Below are positions 175-35,551 of a DNA stretch of 64,000 nucleotides, in pieces. The DNA comes from a virus (lineage: Duplodnaviria > Heunggongvirae > Uroviricota > Caudoviricetes), in the IMG/VR virus record IMGVR_UViG_3300021400_000932. The stretch is one strand, 5' to 3'. A program made the position numbers and the translations under genes. How positions within the stretch are numbered: position 1 is the stretch's first letter; each line of letters starts with the position of its first letter. The notes beneath the pieces were generated by a model that was not told where the DNA came from, searched no databases, and saw nothing but the letters and a program-made list of their open reading frames with translations.

Positions 175-251
175 TGGCTCCGAGGGTGGGACTCGAACCC
201 ACGACCCCATGATTAACAGTCATGTGCTACTACCAACTGAGCTACCTCGGA
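175..251 (-). tRNA. tRNA-Asn (anticodon GTT)
   Basis: Reverse complement folds as a cloverleaf: acceptor TCCGAGG/CCTCGGA, T-arm GTGGGTTCGAGTCCCAC, anticodon loop CTGTTAA, 3' CCA encoded. Confidence 0.85.
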
Positions 252-506
252 ATAAAAGTTGCAGGGAATAGGCTAACATCACCCTACTATGTGGACTCTA
301 ACCCTCTTATCTCCACTTCGGACAAACACCATTCCATATGCCCTTATGTTCTGGTACTATTCCTTGTCATCGGTTTATAGTTTCCCTCCTCAACGGGCGA
401 GGTGTCCGGCGCTCTCTGCAGGTCGTTGCTCACCTTTTGGGAACTGCACTTCCCTCACTACTTCGTGCAGAAAGTAGATGGCAAAGTACACTTATTTTGT
501 GTACTG

Positions 507-582
507 TGGCGATTCCAGCGGGGTTCGAACCCGCGACCTCTAGCGTGACAGGCTAGCGTTCTAACCAACTGAACTATGGAAC
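507..582 (-). tRNA. tRNA-Asp (anticodon GTC)
   Basis: Reverse complement GGTTCCATAGTTCAGTTGGTTAGAACG...CTGTCAC...GGTTCGAACCCCGC...GCCA; anticodon loop CTGTCAC; closely resembles bacterial tRNA-Asp. Confidence 0.85.
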
Positions 583-588
583 CGTATG

Positions 589-674
589 TGGTGCCGGTGG
601 TGGGACTTGAACCCACATGCTTATTCAGCAACAGATTTTGAGTCTGCCGTGTCTGCCAATTCCACCACACCGAC
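589..674 (-). tRNA. tRNA-Leu (anticodon CAA), type II with long variable arm
   Basis: Reverse complement has acceptor GTCGGTG/CACCGGC, anticodon stem-loop GCAGA-CTCAAAA-TCTGT, long variable arm, T-arm GTGGGTTCAAGTCCCAC, CCA encoded. Confidence 0.8.
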
Positions 675-679
675 ACATA

Positions 680-1381
680 TTATGAATATCTCTTATCCTT
701 GTCTTCTGCACTCCGGAAGATGAACTTCCGGTAATCCTCATAGTCTGAGAACTGAATGTACTCACCGGTGCGAACATCAAAGCAATTTGAATTTCTGCAA
801 AATTCATAGCTGTTTGCACTGACTACGATATAAATATCGCAAGATTCCCTCTGTTTGAAATCCTCAATAATGACATCGAACAAATCAGTTTTGACACTAT
901 CAATATTATCTACAGACAATCCACTATCGAGGGCATCCAGCAGCACCCAAATCTCCTTGCGGTTATTCGCATACTTACGAACAAATGCACCGATTTTCCT
1001 TGCTGTGTTGCCGAGATTCGTTACAATCTGTTCACCCTCAGAACTCTGTATCAATGTCGCAAGAAGACTCCAATCATCATGCCATCCAGCGGAATTCTTT
1101 GCTCTGTCGCCACCCTCACGGAGATTGTCGTAATGAAGAACAGCAACATCGGAATCTTGTTTTAAGATATCCTCTATGAGATTGAGAAATGTTGTCTTTC
1201 CAGAACCATTACACCCAACCAATACTGTGATTCCGCTTTTAATTACTACATCAGATTTCATATAAATCTTTCCGGAATCACCGCATTCATAAGGATTAGT
1301 AGGTATTTTGAATTTGTGCATATGTTCGCCTCCAGTTATGATGCCTAGGGTGTCGGGTATATGTGTGGTATAACCCGACAT
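680..1381 (-). CDS. P-loop NTPase, ABC/AAA_21-like minimal ATPase (likely start at internal Met MHKFKI)
   Basis: Walker A VLVGCNGSGKTTF preceded by an SMC/RecF-like N-terminal strand; Walker B IWVLLDALDSGL; no ABC signature motif; sits between tRNA genes. Confidence 0.6.
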   Translation of the reverse strand: MSGYTTHIPDTLGIITGGEHMHKFKIPTNPYECGDSGKIYMKSDVVIKSGITVLVGCNGSGKTTFLNLIEDILKQDSDVAVLHYDNLREGGDRAKNSAGWHDDWSLLATLIQSSEGEQIVTNLGNTARKIGAFVRKYANNRKEIWVLLDALDSGLSVDNIDSVKTDLFDVIIEDFKQRESCDIYIVVSANSYEFCRNSNCFDVRTGEYIQFSDYEDYRKFIFRSAEDKDKRYS

Positions 1382-1496
1382 TCTATGAATTCAATAACCA
1401 CACCTGAGTATTCATAGATGATGGTTTCAAAAAATTAAGGAGATTCATGAAAACCATTATTGAGTGTAGTGAAAAAAGTGTAAAAACCTACACCCA

Positions 1497-1593
1497 TGGT
1501 GGCGAGGGCAGGATTCGAACCTACGTTACCTGAGCTACATATCGTACTACTGTACTAAGCAATCAGTGTCTTAGACCACTTGACCAACCCGCC
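1497..1593 (-). tRNA. tRNA-like gene (type II-like, 97 nt) with non-canonical anticodon arm; identity undetermined, possibly pseudo-tRNA
   Basis: Reverse complement GGCGGGTTGGTCAAGTGG...GTAGGTTCGAATCCTGC CCTCGCC A CCA has good acceptor, D and T arms and an encoded CCA. No 5-bp anticodon stem with a 7-nt loop and U33/R37 can be drawn in the CTGATTGCTTAGTACAG region. Confidence 0.45.
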
Positions 1594-1710
1594 ATTTATA
1601 AATCAATAGGCTGTTCCTCTAACCCCATTTAACTACAGCACTTTGGACGCCTCGAAGTGTCAAACTTCTTCCATTATGCGATTTTCGTAGCACCCATCAA
1701 TTTTAATTTG

Positions 1711-2016
1711 TTATAAGAAATTCCTGCTCATAAAAAATTTCATAAAGCGTTCTTTAACCCTTCGGAACTTGTAAGAAATTCCCTTTGTAGAAATTACTTC
1801 GATTCCCATATTCCCATCCGGAAGTTTTGTGTTTCGAAATTCAAGAGAATCAATAGCATATCCGTATTCTGGTTCATCTATTGAGGTTTCTCCGGTTATA
1901 TGGAATCTCGATGAACCATCCTCATTAACCTTCGTGAATTCCAGCTCAATGAAGTATTCCTCATAGGAGTTATAAAGCCAGATGATGTCGCCTTGTTTTA
2001 ATTCTGATACTTTCAT
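1711..2016 (-). CDS. hypothetical protein
   Basis: 101-aa ORF in co-directional minus-strand array; no recognisable motif. Confidence 0.45.
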   Translation of the reverse strand: MKVSELKQGDIIWLYNSYEEYFIELEFTKVNEDGSSRFHITGETSIDEPEYGYAIDSLEFRNTKLPDGNMGIEVISTKGISYKFRRVKERFMKFFMSRNFL

Positions 2017-2025
2017 ATTGACCCC

Positions 2026-2241
2026 TTAATTATATTCAGTATCACAAAATTTGCAGATATGTCCATGTAATGGAGCTCCACAATTCTTGCAATTTGTGGG
2101 ATGATGTGGATGTTCATTTTCTATTGTGATTGGAACATCAGCTATTTGAGAATACCCATCTGCATTCCGGAGATATAAACCATCATTGCAACAACAGTAC
2201 AGTTGCGCCGATACAAACGACCAATCATTCATAACTTCCAC
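2026..2241 (-). CDS. zinc-ribbon protein (paralog of C-terminus of 15813..16151)
   Basis: C-terminal CKNCGAPLHGHICKFCDTEYN is nearly identical to CKNCGAPLHSNRCEFCDTEYD in ORF 15813..16151. Confidence 0.6.
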   Translation of the reverse strand: MEVMNDWSFVSAQLYCCCNDGLYLRNADGYSQIADVPITIENEHPHHPTNCKNCGAPLHGHICKFCDTEYN

Positions 2242-2252
2242 CTCACATCAAA

Positions 2253-2528
2253 TCAGGACATATGGTCTTCAACAAAAGATACCAAATCTGCCACTGTTCT
2301 GCATTCGCAAAATTCTGACAAAGCGGGTTCATTAATAGAGAATTTGAACATATCCTCTATATCAATAGCCAAGTCCACAGCATCAAGGGAATCAAGACCG
2401 AGGTCCCCACGAAGTTCGGTATCTAAAATTATCTCAGATTTATCTGTGTCTGATTGCTGAGATACCATGTTTCGTACAATTTCAAATACTTCTGACATTT
2501 GAACCTCCATGGCATATAACGATTTCAT
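2253..2528 (-). CDS. acpP: acyl carrier protein homolog (probable start at internal Met MSEVFEI)
   Basis: Phosphopantetheine-attachment motif LGLDSLDAVDL (DSL serine) in a small acidic ~80-aa protein, matching the bacterial ACP LGADSLD motif. Confidence 0.7.
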   Translation of the reverse strand: MKSLYAMEVQMSEVFEIVRNMVSQQSDTDKSEIILDTELRGDLGLDSLDAVDLAIDIEDMFKFSINEPALSEFCECRTVADLVSFVEDHMS

Positions 2529-2538
2529 TATACATATT

Positions 2539-2615
2539 TGGAGCAGATAAGGGGACTCGAACCCCCACTACCAACTTGGAAGGATGGTGTGCTAACCGTT
2601 GAACACTATATCTGC
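2539..2615 (-). tRNA. tRNA-Gly (anticodon TCC)
   Basis: Reverse complement GCAGATA...CCTTCCAAG anticodon loop (as in bacterial tRNA-Gly UCC), T-loop GGTTCGAGTCC, discriminator U, CCA encoded. Confidence 0.8.
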
Positions 2616-2634
2616 ATATTTGTAACTAAAAAAC

Positions 2635-3039
2635 TTAGTAGTTAAAAATTTGTCCATCTTCCGGTAGACCGGCAAATTCTGGACCCAGTTCATATGGGAA
2701 ACCATCGACATAAATGATATCGGCATCTTCATCATATGGATAAGTCTTGTTCACAGCATCACGAATAGAAGAATTGCTCTTGGCAATTTCCCGCGACCGC
2801 TTTTCAGTTGCGAAACTACGTGCAGCATTGACTAGCGAAAACATATCCGCATTAGAATAATATTTGCATTCGCAGTCCTTTTCATGATACGGAATCTTCT
2901 TCACACCAGAAAATACTAAAGTATTGATTCCACCTAATATATTCTGAATACTTGTTTCATCTGCATCGAATGCATGAAGAATATTATCAGAAAGTGCTAC
3001 GAAGATTGTATCACGCATCAACTTCATCCCTTTCATCAT
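2635..3039 (-). CDS. hypothetical protein
   Basis: 134-aa ORF between tRNA-Gly and tRNA-Leu; no clear motif. Confidence 0.45.
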   Translation of the reverse strand: MMKGMKLMRDTIFVALSDNILHAFDADETSIQNILGGINTLVFSGVKKIPYHEKDCECKYYSNADMFSLVNAARSFATEKRSREIAKSNSSIRDAVNKTYPYDEDADIIYVDGFPYELGPEFAGLPEDGQIFNY

Positions 3040-3189
3040 ATTCCTTCCGAACTAAATCATATCTATCTGCGGCTGACAACCTGTACCAATCATCTTTAAT
3101 ATCCAGAAAAGAAAAAACGGTAAGATTGTGTTCGGACAACAAATCGCAAAATTGTTCTTTATCCATATTTAACCTCAGAAATAAAAGTG

Positions 3190-3270
3190 TGGTGCGCCTG
3201 ACAGGACTCGAACCTGCACCCTTGCGGACTAGAGCCTAAATCTAGCGTGTATGCTTTCCACCACAGGCGC
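3190..3270 (-). tRNA. tRNA-Leu (anticodon TAG), type II
   Basis: Acceptor GCGCCTG/CAGGCGC, anticodon stem-loop CTAGA-TTTAGGC-TCTAG, variable arm, T-arm GCAGGTTCGAGTCCTGT, CCA encoded; D-loop lacks the GG dinucleotide. Confidence 0.7.
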
Positions 3271-3279
3271 ACATCTTAT

Positions 3280-3477
3280 TTATCCAATATCTCTATCATA
3301 AGTAGTTTTATCACAGTTCGGACATTTCATATAAGTGAAAAATTCTACGCACGGCGGAGAAATGTGGAGCTCAGCATCACTTCTATTCGCATACCACTCA
3401 CACCCACAATGTTTGCAAGTAAAATGAAACTCACCGGTCTTAGACTTGGTTACATCCCCCGATTTGACGATATTCAT
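3280..3477 (-). CDS. small zinc-ribbon protein
   Basis: CKHCGC...C...CPNC; two CxxC pairs in 65 aa. Confidence 0.5.
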   Translation of the reverse strand: MNIVKSGDVTKSKTGEFHFTCKHCGCEWYANRSDAELHISPPCVEFFTYMKCPNCDKTTYDRDIG

Positions 3478-3980
3478 AACAACTAACCTCGCTGTTCACC
3501 TAAGCATAAAGTTGTGCCGGATATTCCCCGCTCTATTCTCCGACTCCACCCCAATACACGCATTTGCCCATATCTGTGTCTTTACTGTCGTTTTTGTCGG
3601 ACAGGGTGGTATGTTTGTCAACTCAATACTTAGGATAGTCCCAAATTGCGTAGGCTTTATTGGCTTTGCATATTGGGCAGTATTTCGTACCATTTCACAT
3701 AGCACTTATCAGAGAGATTACTGTAGTTCCTCTCCATAAGATTTCAGCGCAGCACCTGCCCCTCCAGATGCCGAGTTTTATCCGTAACAAAACCAGACCT
3801 ATGTATTGAATTGACATTCTCTATCCACCACGCCGTACGCACATCATATAGCCCTCGGCGTAGCAGTCTGTGACCCCTCAAAGAGACGTGAGGTGCTTTC
3901 TTTGGCGGATTAGCTCGCCCCCGCCGGTCAGACATCGCCCTTTCATGCTTTGCCATCCTATAGTAAACCGACTTAGGTTT

Positions 3981-4056
3981 TGGTGTGCCGAGAGGGATTC
4001 GAACCCACGACCTGCGGATTAAAAGTCCGCTACTCTTCCGGCTGAGTTATCGGCAC
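3981..4056 (-). tRNA. tRNA-Lys (anticodon TTT)
   Basis: Acceptor GTGCCGA/TCGGCAC, anticodon stem-loop GCGGA-CTTTTAA-TCCGC, T-loop GGTTCGAATCC, CCA encoded. Confidence 0.85.
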
Positions 4057-4313
4057 ATAGATGTGAGGTTGGTAGTCATCCTTTTACTGCTGAGGGGGAC
4101 CCCACAACTCCCGTTTTCGAATGGGTCCGCACGGAGATTCCAAAAGGTGCGGATTTCGAAGTAGCTACTCTCCAGCTACAAGAAGAACGGTTTTACCAAA
4201 GGACTCACAACGCGATGTGAAAATCCTACCGACCGATAAGGGGATGATTTCTCGTTTACCATCCTAACGCCATCTTTTCGGCGACTAACCCAGGGCAGGT
4301 ATATGTTTCCCTT

Positions 4314-4400
4314 TGGTGCAAGTGAAGGGAATTGAACCCTTAATCCCAACAGGGCATGGGATTTTAAGTCCCACTTGTATGCCAGTTCCAACACACTTGC
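4314..4400 (-). tRNA. tRNA-Leu (anticodon TAA), type II
   Basis: Acceptor GCAAGTG/CACTTGC, anticodon TGGGA-CTTAAAA-TCCCA, variable arm CCC-TGTT-GGG, T-arm AAGGGTTCAATTCCCTT, CCA encoded. Confidence 0.85.
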
Positions 4401-5780: not shown

Positions 5781-6407
5781 TTATGCAGAAATTTCGTCTG
5801 CGGTAAGCGGAATTACGCGCGAAATGACGAATGGCACAGAAACTGTCAGGATGGCCCCTCCGGCCTGGTCCCCTGGACCTCTGTTCAAAGCACCAATCCA
5901 AGTACCAGGACAACGGAGACCATGACGCAGATTACCTTGTCCATCATAGCGAAGGAAGTAAACCTGCTTCATATACTCTGTAGGTAATCCCATTCTTTCG
6001 GTTGCAGGGTCATACACCTGACGTCTCCACTCTTCGAGAGCTCCGAGAACATTAGGCTCACAGAAGCAGTTAAGAGTCCAAGTGACATCATCGAAGTTGA
6101 CCTTAGACGGGAATTTGATTAGACCATTACCGTAGTGTACTGTGATGATATCTTCACTCTCTGAGATATCACCGATTTCTGCGGTAGACAGGGTTAATAG
6201 GTCGGAATTTTCTGTCGGGCTGGAACCATCCATGTTGTAGATTCTTACCTCAAAGTTGTTAGTGGTCAGAGGTACATAGTTATCTACACCCAACATATGG
6301 TTTGTACGTTTGTGTTTAGCGGAATTTCGCAAGGATTCCGTTGTTGTAGCTCTCCGGAAACTACCTTTTACCTTTCGATAAAAGACCAGACTATTTGTTA
6401 ATCTCAT
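5781..6407 (-). CDS. hypothetical protein (first gene of a long minus-strand operon)
   Basis: 208-aa ORF starting at the divergent intergenic region 6408-6840. Confidence 0.5.
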   Translation of the reverse strand: MRLTNSLVFYRKVKGSFRRATTTESLRNSAKHKRTNHMLGVDNYVPLTTNNFEVRIYNMDGSSPTENSDLLTLSTAEIGDISESEDIITVHYGNGLIKFPSKVNFDDVTWTLNCFCEPNVLGALEEWRRQVYDPATERMGLPTEYMKQVYFLRYDGQGNLRHGLRCPGTWIGALNRGPGDQAGGAILTVSVPFVISRVIPLTADEISA

Positions 6408-6757
6408 TATATTTTGAGATTGTGGATTTTTCGCTCACCCATTGGCTTGGCAGCTAACTCCCCCTCAAGGGGATAGTCGTTGAACGTATTTCATATTGGA
6501 TATATTACCCAACTTAGAAATTTCGCTGCTAAACGTCCCATTGTTACATCTCTTACTTTTTAATCTATCACGATTACTATTTCTAGTTTCGTTGTAGCAA
6601 AGAGCTCTTAGGAACTTCAAAGCAATTAACACACAGCACATATGTATCACTACATATGTGGGGCATCATCCACCCATGTACAGCGGAGAAAACATATATT
6701 TTATCTCACCTTTCTATAATATTTTTGAGTTTTTGATTGACTCATTGATATTATAGG

Positions 6758-6786
6758 TTGCACTTTTTATGTTTTTATGATATAAT
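6758..6786 (+). promoter_or_regulatory. sigma-A/sigma-70-like promoter (TTGCAC-17nt-TATAAT)
   Basis: TTGCAC at 6758-6763, exactly 17 nt of spacer, TATAAT at 6781-6786; ~50 nt upstream of ATG 6841 with an A/G-rich ribosome-binding site. Confidence 0.55.
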
Positions 6787-7024
6787 TAGTACATAGGCAC
6801 AAATCACTTGAAAGGATTGGTAAGCTACGGAAAAAAGAAAATGTAAATTCTGCGGAAAAGAATTCTTACCCAAGTCTAATTTCCAGAAATACTGCAAAGG
6901 TCCGCATATCCGGATTTGTCCTGTTTGCGGAAAAGAGTACGAGGAAACCAATTCGGATAATCTGAAACGACCACCGCATGCTTGTTCCTATGCTTGCAGA
7001 GCAAAGAAAACCAGACAAACGAGT

Positions 7025-8530
7025 ATGGAAAGATATGGATGTGTTGCCCCTGGAAATAACATAGCAGCTAGAAAGAAAGCGAAAGCTACTATGCAAGAAC
7101 GATTTGGTGTTGACTATGCTATGCAATCGGAAACTGTCAGAAAGAAATCTGTTGCCACCAATATAAAAAAGTATGGTGTCGAAAACCCCCAACAAAATGA
7201 AACAATCAAACAAAAAACCGCAGAAACAAATCAGGAACGGTATGGGGGCACCGGTTTTCAATCAGAAGAGTTGCTAAATAAGTATAAAGATACAATGATT
7301 GATATATATGGTGTTACTTCCCCCATTCAAAACCAACAGATTCGACAGGATATTATGAATACTATGCAAGACAGACATGGCGCTTCATGGTTCTCTCAGA
7401 GTGAAGAATATAAAGATAAATGTCATACTACTTCATTATCTAAATATGGTGCGGAACACTGGATGCAAACAGATGAGTGTAAGCAGAAATGCAAAGATAC
7501 TTGGCTGCGGAATTATGGCGTTGATAATCCATCGAAATCTCCGCTAGTAATCGCCAAGATAAAGCAGACATTTATTGATAAGTATGGGACAGATGGACTA
7601 TTGAATGTAGCTGAAATCCGAGAGAAGATACAGAAGACTTGCATTGAAAGATATGGTGTTCCCTATGGGGTATTGACACCACAAGCACGAAAACACAATG
7701 GTGCTATATCGAAGCAAAACAAACAAGTAATGAAATTATTAGATGATGCCGGTTTGAGCTATCAGTCAGAATTCAATCTTGAAAATAAATCATTTGACAT
7801 CAAAATTTTATATTCCAATATACTTATTGAGATTGACCCATCATACACACATTCAATAGAACTAACTCACTGGAATACCTCTGTTTCAGATACATACCAT
7901 ATAGAAAAGACTATGTTGGCAAACAAACATGGATATCAATGTTACCATATCTTCGATTGGGACGATAGGAAAAAATTTGTCAAATCTCTAACTAAGAAAA
8001 AAGATATAGAAACAGACCAATATTATATATCTGAAGTAGATGAATTGACTGCAACTGAATTTTATTATAAATATTCCATCTATATGCCGGATACCAAGTA
8101 TGCAATCCATATTGGAATATTCAACAAGCGGAATAATGCACTACTGCAAGTATCGTCATTCAGATTCATAGATATTTCTAACTGTCGGTGGCTGCTTTGT
8201 GCTAACAGCATCAAATTCCAAATTAATGTTATAGATGGACTGCATAATATCATAGACCACTTTGTTAAATACTATGACCCTGCTGAAATTGTCGGATTAT
8301 GTGATATAGCAAAATCAAATGGGATGATGTTTGAATCAATAGGGTTCAAAGAACTTTCAGAAGAACCACCACGTTTGATTTGGAGTCGATATCGGTCAGC
8401 AATTTCTAATGACAATGTAAAAAGTCAAACCAAATTGAATGATGAACAAATATACTCTATGATGATAAACAATAAATATCTGCCTGTATATGACTGTGGA
8501 TACAAAGTATATTCATTGAAACTCCGGTAA
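7025..8530 (+). CDS. repeat-containing putative site-specific/homing endonuclease: tandem ~30-aa K..(K/R)YGV.NP.Q repeats plus C-terminal PD-(D/E)xK-like (DUF559/Vsr-type) domain; N-terminal Zn-finger module probably starts at 6841
   Basis: At least eight repeats (QERFGVDYAMQSE, KKYGVENPQQNE, QERYGGTGFQSEE, IDIYGVTSP, SKYGAEHWMQ, RNYGVDNPSKSP, DKYGTDGLLN, ERYGVPYGV). The C-terminal FDIKILYSNILIEIDPSYTH resembles a DUF559 nuclease core. The in-frame upstream sequence 6842-7024 encodes CKFCGKEF...CPVCGKEY and has no start codon. Confidence 0.75.
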   Translation: MERYGCVAPGNNIAARKKAKATMQERFGVDYAMQSETVRKKSVATNIKKYGVENPQQNETIKQKTAETNQERYGGTGFQSEELLNKYKDTMIDIYGVTSPIQNQQIRQDIMNTMQDRHGASWFSQSEEYKDKCHTTSLSKYGAEHWMQTDECKQKCKDTWLRNYGVDNPSKSPLVIAKIKQTFIDKYGTDGLLNVAEIREKIQKTCIERYGVPYGVLTPQARKHNGAISKQNKQVMKLLDDAGLSYQSEFNLENKSFDIKILYSNILIEIDPSYTHSIELTHWNTSVSDTYHIEKTMLANKHGYQCYHIFDWDDRKKFVKSLTKKKDIETDQYYISEVDELTATEFYYKYSIYMPDTKYAIHIGIFNKRNNALLQVSSFRFIDISNCRWLLCANSIKFQINVIDGLHNIIDHFVKYYDPAEIVGLCDIAKSNGMMFESIGFKELSEEPPRLIWSRYRSAISNDNVKSQTKLNDEQIYSMMINNKYLPVYDCGYKVYSLKLR

Positions 8531-8539
8531 ACAAAAATA

Positions 8540-8578
8540 AGGCACACCCAACCAAGCAACAAGGGTGTGCCTTTTTTG
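8540..8578 (+). terminator. rho-independent terminator (GGCACACCC...GGGTGTGCC + T6)
   Basis: 9-bp GC-rich stem with 13-nt loop followed by TTTTTT, immediately after the stop of the plus-strand gene. Confidence 0.7.
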
Positions 8579-8585
8579 TATAGGA

Positions 8586-8831
8586 TTAATTAATGACCAA
8601 GCAAAGCGTTCCAGAACCGTCTTCGGAAGGAGAAAATACCGTATAGGAATAAGGCGTGTAGTCGAATGCATCATAGGTTTCTTTCTTTTCTTTAATCATA
8701 AGCATAGGTTCTATGCCGGAAATACCTTGATAGCCACTTTTCTCCATATCTGACTGATAGCTAATGATGGGAGTATCATCCGGCAAATCTTTAATTGCTT
8801 CTTTTAGATGTCTTACGGTACGTACTATCAT
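8586..8831 (-). CDS. hypothetical protein
   Basis: 81-aa ORF. Confidence 0.4.
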   Translation of the reverse strand: MIVRTVRHLKEAIKDLPDDTPIISYQSDMEKSGYQGISGIEPMLMIKEKKETYDAFDYTPYSYTVFSPSEDGSGTLCLVIN

Positions 8832-21116: not shown

Positions 21117-21300
21117 CCACACGACTAAAGTCGTGGGATTCTTGCTTCAACGACTACGGCGAGCGTTTTACTCAAAGAGTTCAGCTCGACTTACACAATC
21201 TCCACAAGCTAGATTAAAGAGTTCCCGTGTGCCCCACGGTGCTCTGTGTATTAATAGAGGTTAAGCTATCATAGCCAACCCTTTAGTTAATATATTCATA
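21117..21300 (-). ncRNA. putative TnpB omega/right-end guide RNA (3' end of tnpB plus right end)
   Basis: Structured ~145-nt right-end segment downstream of the tnpB stop, ending in the terminal hairpin; by analogy to characterised IS605 TnpB systems. Confidence 0.4.
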
Positions 21301-22355
21301 GCGGCATTGACATCTCTGTCGTGATACTCTCCGCACTCGGGGCAAGTCCACTTTCGTATAGCTAAATTCTTAACTAATGGATTTTTATATCCGCACTTGT
21401 TACACAACTGACTGCTCGGATAGGTAGTAGGCACTCTCTGTACTGTCCTGCCGTACCAGGCAGCTTTGTATTCAAGCATTGTAAAAAACTTAGACCACGA
21501 AGCGGAGGATATACTTTTAGCCAGCTTGTGATTTTTGAGCATATTTTTGATTTTCAAGTCTTCTACACAGATTACTTGGTTTTCGTTAATCAGTGTAGTT
21601 GAAAGCTTTTGCAAAAAATCATTTCGCTGATTAGATACCTTCTCGTGGACTTTAGCTACTCTTAGTCGTTGCTTATCTCTGTTATGGGAGTCAACCTTCT
21701 TTCTGGAAAGTTTTCTTTGTTCTCTGCGTAATTTTCTTTGTGTTCGTTCTAACCTTTTGTGATTAGGTACAGAATTACCGTTACTGTCGGAATAGAAATC
21801 TTTTATGCCGACATCTATACCAATAACGGAATCTATTCTGTCTAAAGGTTGAGGTTCAAAGTCAATGTTAAGAACAGCAAAATACTTTCCTGTAGGTGTT
21901 CTCTCTACAGTAACATTATTAATATGACCTATATTCATTGACTGTTTGACTTTAATATAGCCAAGCTTTGGTAACTTTAGTTTATTGCCGTCAATGCGAA
22001 TATTATTACCTTGATTAAGAGTTCTGTAACTCTGGCGATGGTTATGTTTACTTTTGAAACAAGGATATCTGCCTAACTTCTTAAAGAAGTTTTGATACGC
22101 TCGGTCTAAATCCCTGAGAGATTGTTGCAGAGCAATACTATCAACTTCCTTAAGAAAGGAAAAGTCATCTTGCATTTTCATAGAGGTGAGCATAGCAGAA
22201 GTAGCGGTATAGTTAGCTTTATTACCTAACTTGTATTGTTCAATTCTGTATGCTAAACCTTTGTTGTAAATGAATCGAACACAACCAAGAGTGCGGTTTA
22301 TTATGTTTTGCTGTTCCCGATTGGGATAGATACGAAACTTTACACCTTTGTTCAT
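21261..22355 (-). CDS. tnpB: TnpB (IS605 OrfB-family RNA-guided nuclease)
   Basis: 364 aa; RuvC-like motifs ([10 protein letters not shown]) and C-terminal zinc finger CNKCG...CPECG. Confidence 0.85.
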
Positions 22356-32148: not shown

Positions 32149-32604
32149 TCAAACAACAGCCGCACCATATCTTTCGATATTTGTTTTAACAGTTTTCTCT
32201 CGTTTCTTCTTATTTAGACATTCTGTAGAACAATAACCCCTAAACAAGATATTGCCTTTGCTTATCTTACTAGCTACAGCAGCACCGCAACATTCGCAGG
32301 TAGAAAAATGCGTAAAATTACCATCAAAGCCATCGCAATACTTGCGTTTTGACTTCTGATAAAACTGCTTACCGCCACGAATGATAGGATGTTTCGAAAT
32401 AAACGGTCTGCCGCAGTATTCGCATATCTTCATAAACTTCGCATCATCAGAATTTTCAATATCCTGTTTCAGTTTAGCAAATTCATCTATGCATTCTTGA
32501 CATACCGCACCAGATGTATCATTATTCAGTTGTTTTCCGCAGCTTACACATACCATAGTATCACCGAACATAAAAATATGGTGAGCCAGATACTGACCCA
32601 CCAT
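32149..32604 (-). CDS. Zn-finger + single ERYG-repeat protein, paralog of the N-terminal module of the 6841/7025-8530 gene
   Basis: CEYCGRPF...YCDGF...CECCG...ECLNKKKREKTVKTNIERYGAAVV aligns with CKFCGKEF...YCKGP...CPVCG...ACRAKKTRQTSMERYGCVAPG upstream of 7025. Confidence 0.55.
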   Translation of the reverse strand: MVGQYLAHHIFMFGDTMVCVSCGKQLNNDTSGAVCQECIDEFAKLKQDIENSDDAKFMKICEYCGRPFISKHPIIRGGKQFYQKSKRKYCDGFDGNFTHFSTCECCGAAVASKISKGNILFRGYCSTECLNKKKREKTVKTNIERYGAAVV

Positions 32605-32671: not shown

Positions 32672-35551
32672 TTAGGTATAATTTGTAAGGTCTGTCTGAG
32701 GAGGAAGTGCAATAAGGTCAATGGTAATCTTCTGAATTGTTCCTGCTGGAGTAATGTAGATTTTGCCCACGCAGCTATTGGCCTTGACCGTGCCGATGGC
32801 ATCAAAGTCATTACCAATAACAACCTTGTAATCTCCGATAGCTCCGGCATTCTTCATAGAATCGAGGATAGGAGTTACGCCAACATAGAAGCTAGAGAAA
32901 GCTGCTTGGTTGGTATACTGGAATGTGATGGAGATACCTACCTTGTATACTACATTCTTGATGGCATTGACCAACAGACGAGTCGATAGATTTCTCAGAG
33001 CCTGATAGGTTGCAGGCGGATTCTCATACAGAGTGGAGTCACCCCATACGCTTAAACCGAGGTCGGGAATATTAGCGATAGCATTGACGCCAACACCACC
33101 CTCAGTATCGGGGTCAGGCTGCCACTTATCGAGATACTTCTTAGATACAGTGTAATCCATCTTACCGATTCTTACATTGTTCTTTCTCGAAGTTGGCTGA
33201 ATCCACTCATACTGCAAGCTCTGGTTCAGAACCATAGACCTCTGGATTAACAATGCGAGGAAAGAAGGAGAAGCGATGTTCTGCTTGTTAGTTCCTACAT
33301 AGATGTAGTTACCCCAAGGTCCGAACAGTGCTGCATGGGTAGAACGCAGACCATCCATACCGGAATCATATCTTGCCAATCTCTGAGCATAGCCGGTTTC
33401 AGCAGGCTGCTGAGAAGAATTGGTTACATATACCTTAGAAAGACTTCTCGGAATATCGAGATATGCAGTAGCACAACGAGAACCATAAGCAACATCCATC
33501 AGCTTAGTCTGGAGCGGAGATGGAGTCATCATATTGTGCGGATACTTGTCATCACCTGTTACAAACAAGAAGTCTTGGTCATCCCAACCTGGGCTAATCA
33601 ATCTATTCGGATTGTATGCTAACTTATCTGTCAGCAGACCGTATACAGGCAAGCAGTTAGTGAATAACCACTCTCTATAAAGTAAAGTCTGCGCAGTAGT
33701 AGAATCAATCGGAGAAGATATAACTTTTGTACCGTCCAAGATAGTTTTGTTGTACATGTCACAGAATGTCGATAGATAAGCAGTTTGCGCAAACCAGTCA
33801 GTAACCTTGCACTTTACTTTGTATGTGTATTCCTCAGTTGTTGTAAACTTGGCAACACCAGCAGCAGTAAAGATAATATTAAGTTTATTTTCCGAAATCG
33901 TATAATGCGTATTCTTCTCAAGTCCTGGAGCACTACCAACAGGCTCGCCATCATGAATCGGAGATGAGTCATCAGCATTTATAGCTACACCATTATGTTT
34001 GGAATAGTACTTAATATTTAAAGTTGGCGCGCCCTTGTCATAGTATTTATTCGACTCCCAAGTTGGCGCACTCGCTCCAGAAGGCACAGCCACATAGTTA
34101 CCGCTTAAATCCTTTTCATAGTAACTAGTATAGGTTGTAGCCCAGTCATCAGGTTCAGAAGTAAGCAAAGTATATTTAGTATGAGATTCCAGAATATCCT
34201 TAGAAATCGTAATATTTACGTCATCATCAGACTCTTTCTTCTTTGGATTCTCACCATAACGGCTACCGACATAAGCAATAGTATCTATCAAGCATTTTGC
34301 GATATCGGTTTCAGCAGTTTTGTCTGAACCGCCCGCAAATTCAATCCATGTATTCACATTATCAACATCCGTTTGTCCATTTGCCGCAGCAAAAACGGTA
34401 TCTTCACTAAGACCCTCTGCAACAATATTAACGAACTGAGACTGAACCTCTCCTACATATGGAATGTTGTCAGTCGAATTTGTGATATCAAATGTGAATA
34501 TCATATTTTCAACTGCAAGTCTTACACCAGAAGCATCCTGAATATAGGTGATGAGGTTCCAATACTTCTGACCTCTGCTCTCCATCTTATTGAGAGAACA
34601 ACGAATGTTATTACCGAATGTGCCTGGGTACTTAGCAGTTAAAGTAAGAGAACCTGTTTCTTCAGCCTTACCAGTTTTCGGATTTACTGCGCGAATGTCT
34701 GTAGAATAGGTAATGGTAATAGAATCATCTGCCATAATTCCTACAGATTCCCATGTGGGATAATCGGTTCTGTAGTAAGTGTTTTCAGCGAAAGTAGGTG
34801 CGGAATCACCACTGAGCGGAGTATATGTATCGCCGGACTTGGAATAATATGATTTCCATTTAGTGCTCCAATCCTCCGGTGCTGCTTCAAGAACAATAAA
34901 TGGACGCTTGAACTTAACAACTATTGTTTCTCCAGTTTTGCTGTACTCAAGCCACTTTTTGCTTTCCGCAGTTTGCTTCCCATCCTTATCCAACTTAATC
35001 TCACGATAATTCGAATTGAAATTAGGATTAGTAGATGTACAAATAAAACTATGTTCATCATTCGGTTCTCGATTCAATGCGAATGTTGCAATGCTTACAG
35101 AATCATTTATATTTACGTTTTTCGCATCATCAGAATCTTCGACAACATCACGCTTGATACTATTACTCATATTGCCGACTGCGGCAATACCTGGCGAAAC
35201 TCTACAAACAAGAACATCATAACCAGCAGTAAGCAGCGAAACAGCCATTTGGTAGGAATAATCCTGAGCTAGACGATAGTTAGCGGCCGCACCACGATAG
35301 GTGGACACAAAAGATTCAAGACCCTGAGAATTTGCTTTGAATCTCGTCCATACAATATCTTCGATAGCCTGCTCATCAGCACTTGCTGAAGATACAGTAA
35401 TTTTGCCTGTTTTGCCATCCATCACCTTTTCAGAACCAAGATATGCAGGTCCCCAACTTGCGGTAATCGGCAGAGCAACACAACAGTATGAATTATCGCC
35501 TATGACATACGAATAATTTTGGGATATTTCATTAATTAAAATATCTGCCAT
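32672..35551 (-). CDS. tail sheath protein (959 aa, with insertion domains)
   Basis: N-terminal ILINEIS...VALPITASWGPAYLGSEK matches the sheath N-terminal consensus (compare P2 FI LEINEG...TASDAD). C-terminal SVWGDST...GKIYITPAGTIQKITIDLIAL matches the sheath C-terminal domain (P2 FI RFWGNRT...GKLYIDYDYTPV). Confidence 0.8.
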   Translation of the reverse strand: MADILINEISQNYSYVIGDNSYCCVALPITASWGPAYLGSEKVMDGKTGKITVSSASADEQAIEDIVWTRFKANSQGLESFVSTYRGAAANYRLAQDYSYQMAVSLLTAGYDVLVCRVSPGIAAVGNMSNSIKRDVVEDSDDAKNVNINDSVSIATFALNREPNDEHSFICTSTNPNFNSNYREIKLDKDGKQTAESKKWLEYSKTGETIVVKFKRPFIVLEAAPEDWSTKWKSYYSKSGDTYTPLSGDSAPTFAENTYYRTDYPTWESVGIMADDSITITYSTDIRAVNPKTGKAEETGSLTLTAKYPGTFGNNIRCSLNKMESRGQKYWNLITYIQDASGVRLAVENMIFTFDITNSTDNIPYVGEVQSQFVNIVAEGLSEDTVFAAANGQTDVDNVNTWIEFAGGSDKTAETDIAKCLIDTIAYVGSRYGENPKKKESDDDVNITISKDILESHTKYTLLTSEPDDWATTYTSYYEKDLSGNYVAVPSGASAPTWESNKYYDKGAPTLNIKYYSKHNGVAINADDSSPIHDGEPVGSAPGLEKNTHYTISENKLNIIFTAAGVAKFTTTEEYTYKVKCKVTDWFAQTAYLSTFCDMYNKTILDGTKVISSPIDSTTAQTLLYREWLFTNCLPVYGLLTDKLAYNPNRLISPGWDDQDFLFVTGDDKYPHNMMTPSPLQTKLMDVAYGSRCATAYLDIPRSLSKVYVTNSSQQPAETGYAQRLARYDSGMDGLRSTHAALFGPWGNYIYVGTNKQNIASPSFLALLIQRSMVLNQSLQYEWIQPTSRKNNVRIGKMDYTVSKKYLDKWQPDPDTEGGVGVNAIANIPDLGLSVWGDSTLYENPPATYQALRNLSTRLLVNAIKNVVYKVGISITFQYTNQAAFSSFYVGVTPILDSMKNAGAIGDYKVVIGNDFDAIGTVKANSCVGKIYITPAGTIQKITIDLIALPPQTDLTNYT

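What the first reader, a model, noticed from the sequence alone, without database searches (positions are those of the whole stretch)
6841..8530. Homing-endonuclease-like gene whose ATG is 1 nt out of frame with its zinc-finger N-terminal module
The 501-aa ORF (7025..8530) continues in frame upstream to 6824 and encodes a clear Zn-finger module (CKFCGKEF...CPVCGKEY...ACRAKK...MERYG). That module is paralogous to ORF 32149..32604, but it has no ATG, GTG or TTG start. An ATG at 6841 sits behind a σA-like promoter (6758-6786) and a ribosome-binding site, and is followed by T AAA TTC TGC, so ATG-TAA is in frame. Removing the single T at 6844 would give MKFCGKEF..., which points to a 1-nt indel from sequencing error or recent pseudogenisation, or a +1 frameshift at an ATG_TAA_A hungry-stop context. 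The protein combines the Zn finger, at least eight K-x-(K/R)-YGV-x-NP-x-Q repeats and a C-terminal DUF559/Vsr-like PD-(D/E)xK nuclease core (FDIKI...LIEID...H), i.e. a homing or site-specific endonuclease architecture.
Basis: seen in the sequence. Interest (0 to 1): 0.65.

Follow-up and report, generated by a model that had tools for sequence, protein, structure and literature searches.

The report
Homing-endonuclease gene with mutated start codon
This is an ordinary phage "Hef-like" homing-endonuclease gene whose ATG start codon has mutated to ACG by one base change, not a frameshift or recoding site; it lies next to a tail-tube gene that is split by a self-splicing group I intron.

Summary
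The ORF frame is open from 6824, encodes a zinc-binding module, and has no ATG/GTG/TTG before 7025. ATG 6841 is followed by TAA.

The explanation is wrong. A near-identical relative (L005) has the same 150 upstream bases, including ATGTAAA, with one difference: ATG at 6827-6829 where the window has ACG. The real start is therefore 6827 (MEKRKCKFCG...), 10 nt after the Shine-Dalgarno AAAGGA. It was lost by a T-to-C change at 6828. ATG-TAA is only the out-of-frame reading of the Lys-Cys-Lys codons. Deleting T6844 would remove the first Cys of a near-invariant CxxC.

The gene is free-standing, with its own promoter-like site and terminator. [quoted passage not shown] Related phages carry or lack the endonuclease gene at this site.

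The mutation is very recent: the last 1450 nt are identical to L005. Expression is probably abolished or reduced to about 1% or less. Low interest; the intron-endonuclease pairing is the better lead.

The parts
6758..6786 (+). Promoter-like site of the endonuclease gene: TTGCAC, 17-nt spacer, TGATATAAT (extended -10).
   Evidence: Read directly. The motifs are kept in relatives, for example L001 has TTGCAT-17-TGTTATAAT. The -35 matches only 3 of 6 positions, so the consensus scan did not list it. Function is inferred.
6811..6816 (+). Shine-Dalgarno sequence AAAGGA, 10 nt upstream of codon 6827.
   Evidence: In this window 50 of 77 crude gene calls have an SD-like motif, mostly 5-11 nt from the start. 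Relative L006 has AGGAG, a 9-nt spacer, then ATG.
6827..6829 (+). Mutated start codon: ACG here, ATG in relative L005 (T-to-C at 6828).
   Evidence: In one search the window (= L003 = L004) reads gctaCggaaaaaag and L005 reads gctaTggaaaaaag; the other 149 upstream bases are identical. The L005 product P0127 starts MEKRKCKFCGKEF.
6827..8530 (+). Full coding region of the Hef-like endonuclease (567 codons plus stop), if initiated at 6827.
   Evidence: All close relatives have 560 colinear codons from FCGKEF to the stop. dN/dS among lineages is 0.07-0.10.
6841..6846 (+).
   Evidence: The same string is in L005 (ATG start) and in L001, which has canonical ATG/GTG starts upstream.
6842..6997 (+). 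Zn-binding module: C-x2-C-x13-C-x3-H and C-x2-C-x18-C-x3-C, i.e. two predicted Zn sites.
   Evidence: The ligand columns are at least 90% conserved in 57 homologues. Only sub-threshold zinc-ribbon/zinc-finger Pfam hits were found.
6998..7699 (+). Ten tandem repeats of 22-23 aa, roughly K-x3-T-x3-(K/R)-(Y/F)-G-V-x-N-P-x-Q (Pfam DUF7487). Presumed to bind DNA.
   Evidence: Period measured. Pfam DUF7487 E 4.2e-43, 148 bits against a cut-off of 27. The DNA-binding role is inferred only.
7700..8014 (+). Vsr-like (EDxHD-type) PD-(D/E)xK nuclease domain: FDIKI...LIEIDPSYTH...FDWDD.
8015..8527 (+). C-terminal GNAT-fold domain, closest to phage Mu Mom. The family's VVGGASKLF motif is VIDGLHNII here.
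8531..8579 (.). Intrinsic terminator: 10-bp G+C-rich stem 8540-8572 plus T-run. T-rich tails lie on both strands, so it is probably bidirectional.
   Evidence: Fold energy -23.3 kcal/mol, z -5.1. Minus-strand reading. The consensus scan missed it because the loop is 13 nt.
6895..7081 (+). Mosaic patch holding all 34 differences from L005 inside the coding region. The remaining roughly 1450 nt are identical.
6672..6695 (-). Exon 1 of the tail-tube gene (MFSPLYMG), with SD AAAGGTGAG at 6706-6714.
   Evidence: Uninterrupted homologues read MFTPLYMGTNHMLG....
6306..6671 (-). ORF-less group I intron in the tail-tube gene. The junction is ambiguous by 1 nt.
   Evidence: Rfam RF00028 at 6366..6681, 64.1 bits against a gathering score of 50, E 6e-14, full model matched. 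The same intron is in L005, L009 and L012. Fold z -3.4.
5781..6305 (-). Exon 2 of the tail-tube gene (TNHMLGVDNY...). The spliced product is 182 aa.
   Evidence: PHROG 4542 tail tube protein, E 6e-10. Homologues are 180-181 aa.

Best explanation
The locus is a free-standing Hef-like (EDxHD / Vsr-type) homing-endonuclease gene of a roughly 193-kb phage from metagenome assemblies. It has its own promoter-like site, Shine-Dalgarno sequence and terminator. It is transcribed divergently from the neighbouring tail-tube gene.

Its true start codon is at 6827-6829. In the nearest relative this codon is ATG and gives MEKRKCKFCGKEF.... In the window a single T-to-C transition at 6828 made it ACG. Gene callers therefore fall back to the first canonical start, Met 7025, and report a 501-aa protein lacking the Zn module.

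Shown: the ATG-TAA at 6841 is coincidental. Inferred: no indel and no frameshifting are needed to explain the locus.

Inferred consequence: the full-length 567-aa protein is either not made or is made at about 1% or less of the ATG level through weak initiation on ACG. This is an early step in the usual decay of a homing-endonuclease gene, or a strong hypomorph. The substitution and the identity of the ancestral start are shown. The effect on expression is inferred.
For: 1. L005 against the window: the 150 nt upstream of FCGKEF are identical except ATG versus ACG. The L005 gene call starts at that ATG and gives P0127, MEKRKCKFCG.
2. The SD AAAGGA lies 10 nt upstream of 6827, within the 5-11 nt range used by this phage's genes. 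Other relatives have an SD, a 9-nt spacer and then ATG or GTG at the equivalent place.
3. Every full-length homologue inspected begins M-x(2-10)-CxxC and carries the Zn module. The Cys/His columns are at least 90% conserved.
4. An in-frame TAA at 6821-6823 leaves room only for a 5-6 codon leader.
5. ATG 7025 has no SD. Its Met is Leu or Ile in close relatives.
6. The C at 6828 is not in a homopolymer. The same 501-aa call was recorded on three contigs, and the two retrieved (ENA ERZ28612966 and ERZ1756080) are 100% identical to the window.
7. Apart from a 190-nt mosaic patch, the coding sequence is identical to L005 over about 1450 nt, so the change is recent.
8. In E. coli, codons outside the AUG/GUG/UUG and AUA/AUC/AUU/CUG groups, which include ACG, initiate at 0.1-1% of AUG, and an N-terminal Met was confirmed by mass spectrometry for ACG (10.1101/063800).
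9. Decay of homing-endonuclease genes after fixation is the textbook life cycle (PMC3984707).
Against: - No reads were available. A consensus or population-heterogeneity artefact at 6828 cannot be formally excluded, and the three assemblies may come from the same reads.
- Only one relative (L005) shares this exact leader. Polarity (ATG ancestral) rests on positional equivalence with the ATG/GTG of more distant relatives.
- The rest of the ORF is intact and the family is under strong purifying selection (dN/dS 0.07-0.10). That fits a functional allele as well as a very young pseudogene.
- ACG initiation efficiency in the unknown, SD-using host was not measured.
Confidence: 0.85

Rival explanations
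1. ACG is a selected, functional weak start. The allele makes full-length endonuclease at a very low level, which limits toxicity while keeping homing or exclusion activity.
For: - The ORF is fully intact and the SD is retained at 10 nt.
- The family is under strong purifying selection.
- ACG supports measurable Met-initiated translation in E. coli.
- Phage homing endonucleases are typically held at low expression by several translational mechanisms (PMC2988022).
Against: - Only one lineage has ACG.
- Outside the mosaic patch there are no substitutions relative to the ATG allele, so there has been no time for selection to show.
- No ACG start was seen in any other homologue examined here.
Confidence: 0.12
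2. The C at 6828 is a sequencing or assembly error, or a minority variant. The real phage has ATG and a normal gene.
For: - It is a single-base difference from L005 in an otherwise identical 150-nt stretch.
- The assemblies carrying it are 100% identical over 4.8-7.5 kb and might come from the same reads.
Against: - The context GCTACGG is not a homopolymer.
- Consensus substitution errors in deep short-read assemblies are rare.
- Three contigs on record, including two separate ENA analyses, all gave the 501-aa call, so each lacks the ATG.
Confidence: 0.06
3. One reading: a 1-nt insertion (T6844) or sequencing indel separates ATG 6841 from its ORF, and the true protein starts MKFCGKEF.
For: ATG 6841 is 1 nt out of frame, and deleting T6844 would join it to the ORF.
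Against: - L005 has the same ATGTAAA and a proper in-frame ATG 14 nt upstream. L001 also contains AAATGTAAA, read as K-C-K.
- MKFCG would lack the first Cys of a CxxC conserved in at least 90% of homologues.
- The SD lies 24 nt from 6841.
Confidence: 0.02
4. One reading: a programmed +1 ribosomal frameshift at ATG_TAA_A, with initiation at 6841 and a shift over the stop codon.
For: A stop codon in the A site is a known +1 stimulator in prfB-type sites (my own knowledge). The string is present in the sequence.
Against: - Initiator tRNA on AUG cannot re-pair on UGU (sequence logic).
- No SD lies at functional spacing for 6841.
- No RNA structure stands out: 5' region fold z -0.09.
- The site is not used in L005, which has an in-frame ATG 14 nt upstream; L001 and L006 also have canonical in-frame starts, and L006 lacks the ATGTAAA string.
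- The product would lack a Zn ligand.
Confidence: 0.01
5. The 501-aa product from ATG 7025 (repeats, nuclease and GNAT domain without the Zn module) is the functional protein in this phage.
For: It is the first canonical start in frame, and gene callers chose it.
Against: - There is no SD upstream of 7025 in a phage where most genes have one.
- This Met is Leu or Ile in close relatives.
- No homologue examined lacks the Zn module.
Confidence: 0.04

Closest known systems
Hef-like homing endonucleases: Hef of T4-like phage U5 (Sandegren et al. 2005, cited in PMC2988022 and PMC3296691), and Hef-like genes of Campylobacter phages CP220/NCTC12673, Dickeya phage LIMEstone1 and Klebsiella phages RaK2/K64-1
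   Same: - tblastn aligns the window protein to these annotated genes over 81-98% of its length at 23-28% identity.
- PHROG 3339 'homing endonuclease' matches at E 1.4e-44.
- They are free-standing genes in large myovirus-type genomes.
- In LIMEstone1, the Hef-like gene F-LimVIII lists the tail tube gene as its downstream gene (PMC3296691), the same neighbourhood as here.
   Different: - Identity is low.
- This lineage carries a two-site Zn module and ten 23-aa repeats (DUF7487) at the N-terminus.
- The start codon of the window's copy is mutated.
- Cleavage specificity is unknown.
I-Bth0305I, prototype of the EDxHD (Vsr-like) homing endonuclease family (PDB 3R3P; PMC3239194)
   Same: - That paper places phage Hef-type enzymes in the same family.
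- Conserved acidic and His residues are present.
   Different: - I-Bth0305I is intron-encoded, uses NUMOD/HTH DNA-binding modules and has its nuclease at the C-terminus.
- Here the gene is free-standing, binds DNA (presumably) through Zn sites and repeats, and has a further GNAT-fold domain after the nuclease.
- No sequence-level match to PDB entries was found.
Collaborative / trans homing pairs: F-CphI with the cyanophage psbA intron (Zeng et al. 2009, cited in PMC3984707), and T4 mobE with the I-TevIII intron (PMC2790892)
   Same: [quoted passage not shown]
- In related phages, five of six lineages with an interrupted tube gene have a divergent upstream endonuclease gene.
   Different: - It is not shown that the endonuclease cuts the intron insertion site.
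- The nuclease family differs (Vsr-like rather than Endo VII-like or HNH).
- The endonuclease gene also occurs next to intron-less tube genes.
Mom-REase fusion proteins of jumbo phages (Iyer et al. 2021, PMC7824862); phage Mu Mom (PDB 8BV8, PMC13219725)
   Same: - It is fused to a restriction-endonuclease-fold nuclease, as that paper describes.
- Homologues in PA5oct, the phage cited there, are hit by tblastn.
   Different: - That paper reads the fusions as modification-plus-restriction systems, not homing endonucleases.
- In the window's lineage the family motif VVGGASKLF is VIDGLHNII.
- The window protein has no Pfam Mom hit, and a distant homologue reaches only E 0.005, below the cut-off. 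Transferase activity is therefore doubtful here.
prfB-type programmed +1 frameshift sites
   Same: Only that a stop codon follows the proposed shift codon.
   Different: - The P-site codon offers no +1 re-pairing.
- There is no stimulatory SD at the required short spacing.
- The site is not conserved as a recoding site.
- Relatives translate straight through it in the Zn-module frame.

Membership tests
Hef-like / EDxHD (Vsr-like) homing endonucleases | Vsr-like PD-(D/E)xK nuclease fold | tested here: met
   [not shown]
Hef-like / EDxHD (Vsr-like) homing endonucleases | Composite catalytic residues E, D, H, D of the EDxHD motif | tested here: inconclusive
   E24, D33, H51, H57, D86 and D88 of the domain are invariant or at least 90% conserved. 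They were not mapped residue by residue onto 3R3P or Vsr, because no superposition output was available.
Hef-like / EDxHD (Vsr-like) homing endonucleases | Sequence similarity to annotated Hef-like proteins across the nuclease and C-terminal domains | tested here: met
   tblastn covers 83-98% of the C-terminal 276 aa in records annotated Hef, Hef-like or EDxHD. PHROG 3339 matches at E 1.4e-44.
Hef-like / EDxHD (Vsr-like) homing endonucleases | Site-specific DNA cleavage and homing into endonuclease-less alleles | not testable with these tools
   Indirect only. The gene is present or absent at the same site upstream of the tail-tube gene in related phages: about 12 loci with it and 11 without. 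Sequence similarity to L005 drops sharply at the gene's 3' end.
Pfam DUF7487 | Score above the Pfam gathering threshold | tested here: met
   148.2 bits against a cut-off of 27, E 4.2e-43, three stretches.
Mom family of GNAT acyltransferases | GNAT fold closest to Mom | tested here: met
   [not shown]
Mom family of GNAT acyltransferases | Sequence membership (Pfam PF25680) and retention of the family's conserved G-G-A-S-K motif | tested here: not met
   The window's C-terminal 276 aa have no Pfam hit. A distant homologue reaches only E 0.005, 16.9 bits against a cut-off of 27.1. The motif VVGGASKLF is VIDGLHNII in the window.
Programmed +1 ribosomal frameshift site | A shift-prone P-site codon with +1 re-pairing, a stimulatory element, and conservation of the two-frame arrangement in homologues | tested here: not met
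   AUG to UGU gives no re-pairing. No RNA structure stands out. Relatives have an in-frame start upstream and read the site as K-C-K.
Group I intron (Rfam RF00028), neighbouring feature | Covariance-model score above gathering, and flanking exons that rebuild the uninterrupted protein | tested here: met
   64.1 bits against 50, with the full model matched. Exon 1 (MFSPLYMG) plus exon 2 (TNHMLG...) reproduces MF(T/S)PLYMGTNHMLG of intron-less homologues. Splicing itself was not tested, and the junction is ambiguous by 1 nt.
Intron-encoded homing endonuclease | Endonuclease ORF located inside the intron | tested here: not met
   Exon 1 of the tube gene (6695-6672) lies between the intron (6671-6306) and the endonuclease gene (6827-8530). 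The endonuclease gene is on the opposite strand with its own promoter-like site and terminator.
Collaborative (trans) homing pair | The free-standing endonuclease cleaves intron-less alleles at the intron insertion site | not testable with these tools
   Only the arrangement and the co-occurrence are seen.

The most novel reading that the evidence does not exclude
The ORF-less group I intron in the tail-tube gene and the divergent free-standing Hef-like gene (Vsr nuclease plus Mom-like GNAT domain) may form a collaborative-homing pair. In that reading the nuclease cuts intron-less tube alleles at or near codon 8, and the intron protects its own genome. The ACG allele would then be a naturally attenuated but still functional version rather than a dead gene.
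Probability: 0.15. Interest if true: 0.5.

Novelty: new member of a known kind. Interest (0 to 1): 0.22.

Why it matters
**For annotation.** The 501-aa protein stored in public protein collections for this phage is an artefact of start-codon loss. The real gene is 567 codons long and starts at a mutated codon. An apparent 'ATG one base out of frame' was resolved with a single close relative, without invoking recoding.

**For biology.** The locus gives a dated snapshot of the homing-endonuclease life cycle. The start-loss allele is otherwise identical to an intact allele over 1450 nt, in a family that is under strong purifying selection overall.

**The more useful lead is the context.**
- A Hef-like gene occupies a recurrent site beside the tail-tube gene and is present or absent among related phages.
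- If the endonuclease targets the intron insertion site, this would be a third example of collaborative homing, in a nuclease family with no mapped targets.

It also bears on two competing published readings of the nuclease-Mom-like architecture: homing endonuclease versus restriction-modification.

Tried and rejected
- **Phage GenBank collection, megablast:** no match, so the phage is not a deposited isolate.
- **IMG/VR exact scan** with a conserved 47-mer: nothing.
- **-1 slippage at A_AAA_AAG (6831-6837) from TTG 6817:** this leads to the third frame, not the Zn-module frame, and TTG abuts the SD with no spacer. Rejected by reading the sequence.
- **+1 slippage on AAA_A at 6838-6841 from the TTG mini-ORF:** formally gives MVSYGKKKCKFCG, but needs the same implausible TTG start and is unnecessary given L005. 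Rejected.
- **Other in-frame near-cognate starts** (ATC 6908, ATT 6914, CTG 6962): none has an SD and all lie inside the Zn module.
- **RNA structure in the 5' region:** none above shuffled sequence.
- **Sequence-level links to Vsr, DUF559 or PDB:** none for the nuclease. Only the fold comparison worked.
- **Profile search for Mom in PDB:** no significant hit.
- **Endonuclease gene inside the group I intron:** rejected once exon 1 was located between them.
- **Canonical splice junction:** a junction with both U-1 and omega-G that keeps the reading frame could not be fixed. Homology gives a 1-nt ambiguity (T6672/T6306).
- **Lineage-specific dN/dS on the window branch:** uninformative, because all differences from L005 lie in one 190-nt patch.
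Full report
**1. The observation**

ORF 7025..8530 encodes 501 aa. Its frame stays open upstream to 6824, just after an in-frame TAA at 6821-6823. That stretch encodes ATEKRKCKFCGKEFLPKSNFQKYCKGPHIRICPVCGKEYEETNSDNLKRPPHACSYACRAKKTRQTSMERYG. No ATG, GTG or TTG lies in this frame before 7025. ATG 6841-6843 is followed directly by TAA.

The ORF frame has codons AAA(6839) TGT(6842) AAA(6845) TTC(6848). So ATG-TAA is the -1-frame reading of Lys-Cys-Lys.

**2. What homologues show**

A search of the large protein collection returned more than 2800 relatives. The full-length ones (about 556-584 aa) all begin with a short leader and then the first CxxC: MKVCEFCG, MANIAVRICKFCG, MNLRKCAFCG, MIKICQFCG. 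The Cys/His ligand columns are at least 90% conserved across 57 aligned homologues. The Zn module is therefore an integral part of the protein.

**3. The decisive comparison**

- The window's 501-aa protein sits in a 90%-identity cluster of 13 sequences.
- One member, P0127 (567 aa), starts MEKRKCKFCGKEF. This is the window's upstream translation with Met in place of Thr.
- Its contig L005 (Logan SRR32407001) is identical to the window over the 150 nt upstream of the FCGKEF codons, including ...AAAATGTAAATTC.... The single difference is gctATGgaa in L005 against gctACGgaa in the window.

The start codon is therefore 6827-6829, and the window carries a T-to-C transition at 6828.

The SD AAAGGA (6811-6816) lies 10 nt upstream of 6827. 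In a crude call of 77 genes in the window, 50 have an SD-like motif, mostly 5-11 nt from the start. More distant relatives have AGGAG, 9 nt, then ATG (L006: MTKCKKICAFCG) or GTG (L001, L009) at the equivalent place. They differ by an in-frame 30-nt indel in the leader.

**4. Is the C real?**

- The window is 100% identical to two ENA assemblies: ERZ28612966 (scaffold_80, 193,432 bp) and ERZ1756080. A third contig also carries the 501-aa call.
- The base is not in a homopolymer.
- I could not establish whether these assemblies come from independent reads. I leave about 6% for an artefact or minority variant.

**5. Age and consequence of the mutation**

From FCGKEF to the stop, all close relatives are colinear (560 codons). 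The window and L005 differ at 34 positions, all within nt 47-233 of that stretch (window about 6895-7081). The remaining roughly 1450 nt are identical. Similarity then collapses to about 68% just past the terminator. The gene is thus mosaic and sits at a recombination boundary, and the start mutation is very recent.

Across lineages dN/dS is 0.07-0.10, so the family is a working protein-coding gene.

ATG 7025 has no SD, and its Met is Leu or Ile in close relatives. The 501-aa product is most likely an annotation artefact.

In E. coli, codons outside the AUG/GUG/UUG and AUA/AUC/AUU/CUG groups, which include ACG, initiate at 0.1-1% of AUG, with an N-terminal Met confirmed for ACG (10.1101/063800). 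I therefore infer that this allele is null or a strong hypomorph. That fits the known decay phase of homing-endonuclease genes (PMC3984707). Given how tightly phage endonucleases are normally repressed at translation (PMC2988022), a tolerated attenuation is also possible.

**6. What the protein is**

| Segment | Feature | Evidence |
|---|---|---|
| N-terminus | Two Zn sites | |
| Next | Ten repeats of 22-23 aa, Pfam DUF7487 at 148 bits | |
| Centre | Nuclease domain, no sequence-level hit in Pfam, NCBIfam or PDB | |

- PHROGs call the family 'homing endonuclease' (3339, E 1.4e-44).
- tblastn against deposited phages aligns it at 23-28% identity to genes annotated Hef, Hef-like or EDxHD homing endonuclease. 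These are in Campylobacter, Klebsiella, Vibrio, Aeromonas and Pseudomonas (PA5oct) phages; one search also counts matches in Dickeya phage records, whose annotation was not listed.
- Taylor et al. placed phage Hef-type enzymes in the Vsr-like EDxHD family (PMC3239194).
- Iyer et al. described Mom domains fused to restriction-fold nucleases in jumbo phages and read them as modification plus restriction (PMC7824862).
- In the window's lineage the family motif VVGGASKLF is VIDGLHNII.

The nuclease is central rather than C-terminal, and the Mom-like domain was missed.

**7. Context**

- The gene is one of very few on the + strand: 74 of 77 crude gene calls are on the - strand.
- It has a promoter-like site conserved among relatives. 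A generic consensus scan gave this region no statistical support.
- A strong terminator hairpin follows the stop, with T-rich tails on both strands.

An Rfam scan found a full-length group I intron at 6366..6681 on the - strand (64.1 bits, E 6e-14). The neighbouring ORF 5781..6407 is a tail-tube protein (PHROG 4542), and relatives match it only from residue 35 onward. Uninterrupted relatives read MFTPLYMGTNHMLGIDNF....

| Part of the tube gene | Coordinates (- strand) | Evidence |
|---|---|---|
| Exon 1, MFSPLYMG, behind SD AAAGGTGAG | 6695-6672 | |
| Intron, about 366 nt, no ORF | 6671-6306 | |
| Exon 2, TNHMLGVDNY... | from 6305 | |

The tube gene is therefore split by this intron. The junction is ambiguous by one T, and I could not satisfy U-1 and omega-G together. 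The endonuclease gene is not inside the intron. Its start lies 132 nt from the tube ATG, on the other strand. The same intron is present in L005, L009 and L012.

**8. Mobility evidence**

Among 28 IMG/VR loci that carry the tube gene:

- About 12 have a Hef-like gene next to the tube gene, often several copies.
- 11 have none within 6 kb.
- Six lineages have an interrupted tube 5' end: the window group, L014, L033, L034, L037 (two Rfam introns) and L038. Five of the six have a divergent endonuclease gene 0.5-1.4 kb upstream.
- About 7 of 19 uninterrupted loci have such a gene.

This is not corrected for phylogeny. Only the window group and L037 have Rfam-confirmed introns. It is a lead towards collaborative or trans homing (PMC3984707, PMC2790892), not a result.

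**9. Verdict**

- The descriptive observation holds.
- The mechanism proposed (indel at 6844 or a +1 frameshift) is refuted.
- The correct lesion is an ATG-to-ACG start-codon substitution at 6827-6829, in a new member of the known Hef-like/EDxHD family.
- The finding is ordinary. The intron-endonuclease arrangement and the Mom-like domain are the parts worth following up.

Noticed in passing
window 6306-6695 (- strand): [quoted passage not shown] Gene callers instead report a truncated or intron-extended tube protein (171-220 aa).
   Followed up: yes
window 8015-8527; homologues in alignments A2/A4: The C-terminal domain of this Hef-like family has a GNAT fold closest to phage Mu Mom. Distant members keep a VVGGASKLF motif that is degenerate (VIDGLHNII) in the window's lineage. 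Two published readings of this architecture exist: homing endonuclease, and Mom-REase modification/restriction.
   Followed up: partly
L002 16-1980; protein P0129 (882 aa): In some close relatives a second nuclease-plus-GNAT module is fused in frame into the N-terminal leader of this gene. The fusion lies exactly at the 30-nt indel-polymorphic spot just before the conserved KICAFCG, giving an endonuclease-in-endonuclease mosaic.
   Followed up: partly
L016, L017, L037, L038 (IMG/VR loci): Related phages carry three to five copies or fragments of this endonuclease family within 12 kb, on both sides of the tail-tube gene. L036 has a remnant with repeats and the GNAT domain but no nuclease domain.
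   Followed up: partly
window 32149-32604 (- strand): A 151-aa Cys-rich ORF ends in a single DUF7487-like repeat (KTNIERYG). It lies immediately downstream of the tail-sheath gene (32672-35551), which is where the tube gene sits in relatives such as L020. It is possibly a remnant of another copy of the family. Similarity is weak (E 3e-5).
   Followed up: partly
window 5781-6695 versus 32672-35551: The sheath and tube genes are about 26 kb apart here, but adjacent (17-nt gap) in the relative L020. Only one tube copy is in the window. This points to a large insertion or rearrangement between them.
   Followed up: no
window 21261-22355 (- strand); L009-L011 1-619: There is a TnpB / IS605 OrfB-like gene (PHROG 506, E 6e-134). 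In relatives L009-L011 a 75-79% identical copy lies at a different place, close to the tube-endonuclease region, so it appears to be mobile within this phage group.
   Followed up: no
window 175-4400 (- strand): A cluster of eight tRNA genes: Asn, Asp, Leu x3, Lys x2, Gly.
   Followed up: no
window 8560-8819 versus L005: Identity to L005 falls from 100% to about 68% immediately after the endonuclease terminator. The gene therefore marks a boundary of genetic exchange.
   Followed up: partly
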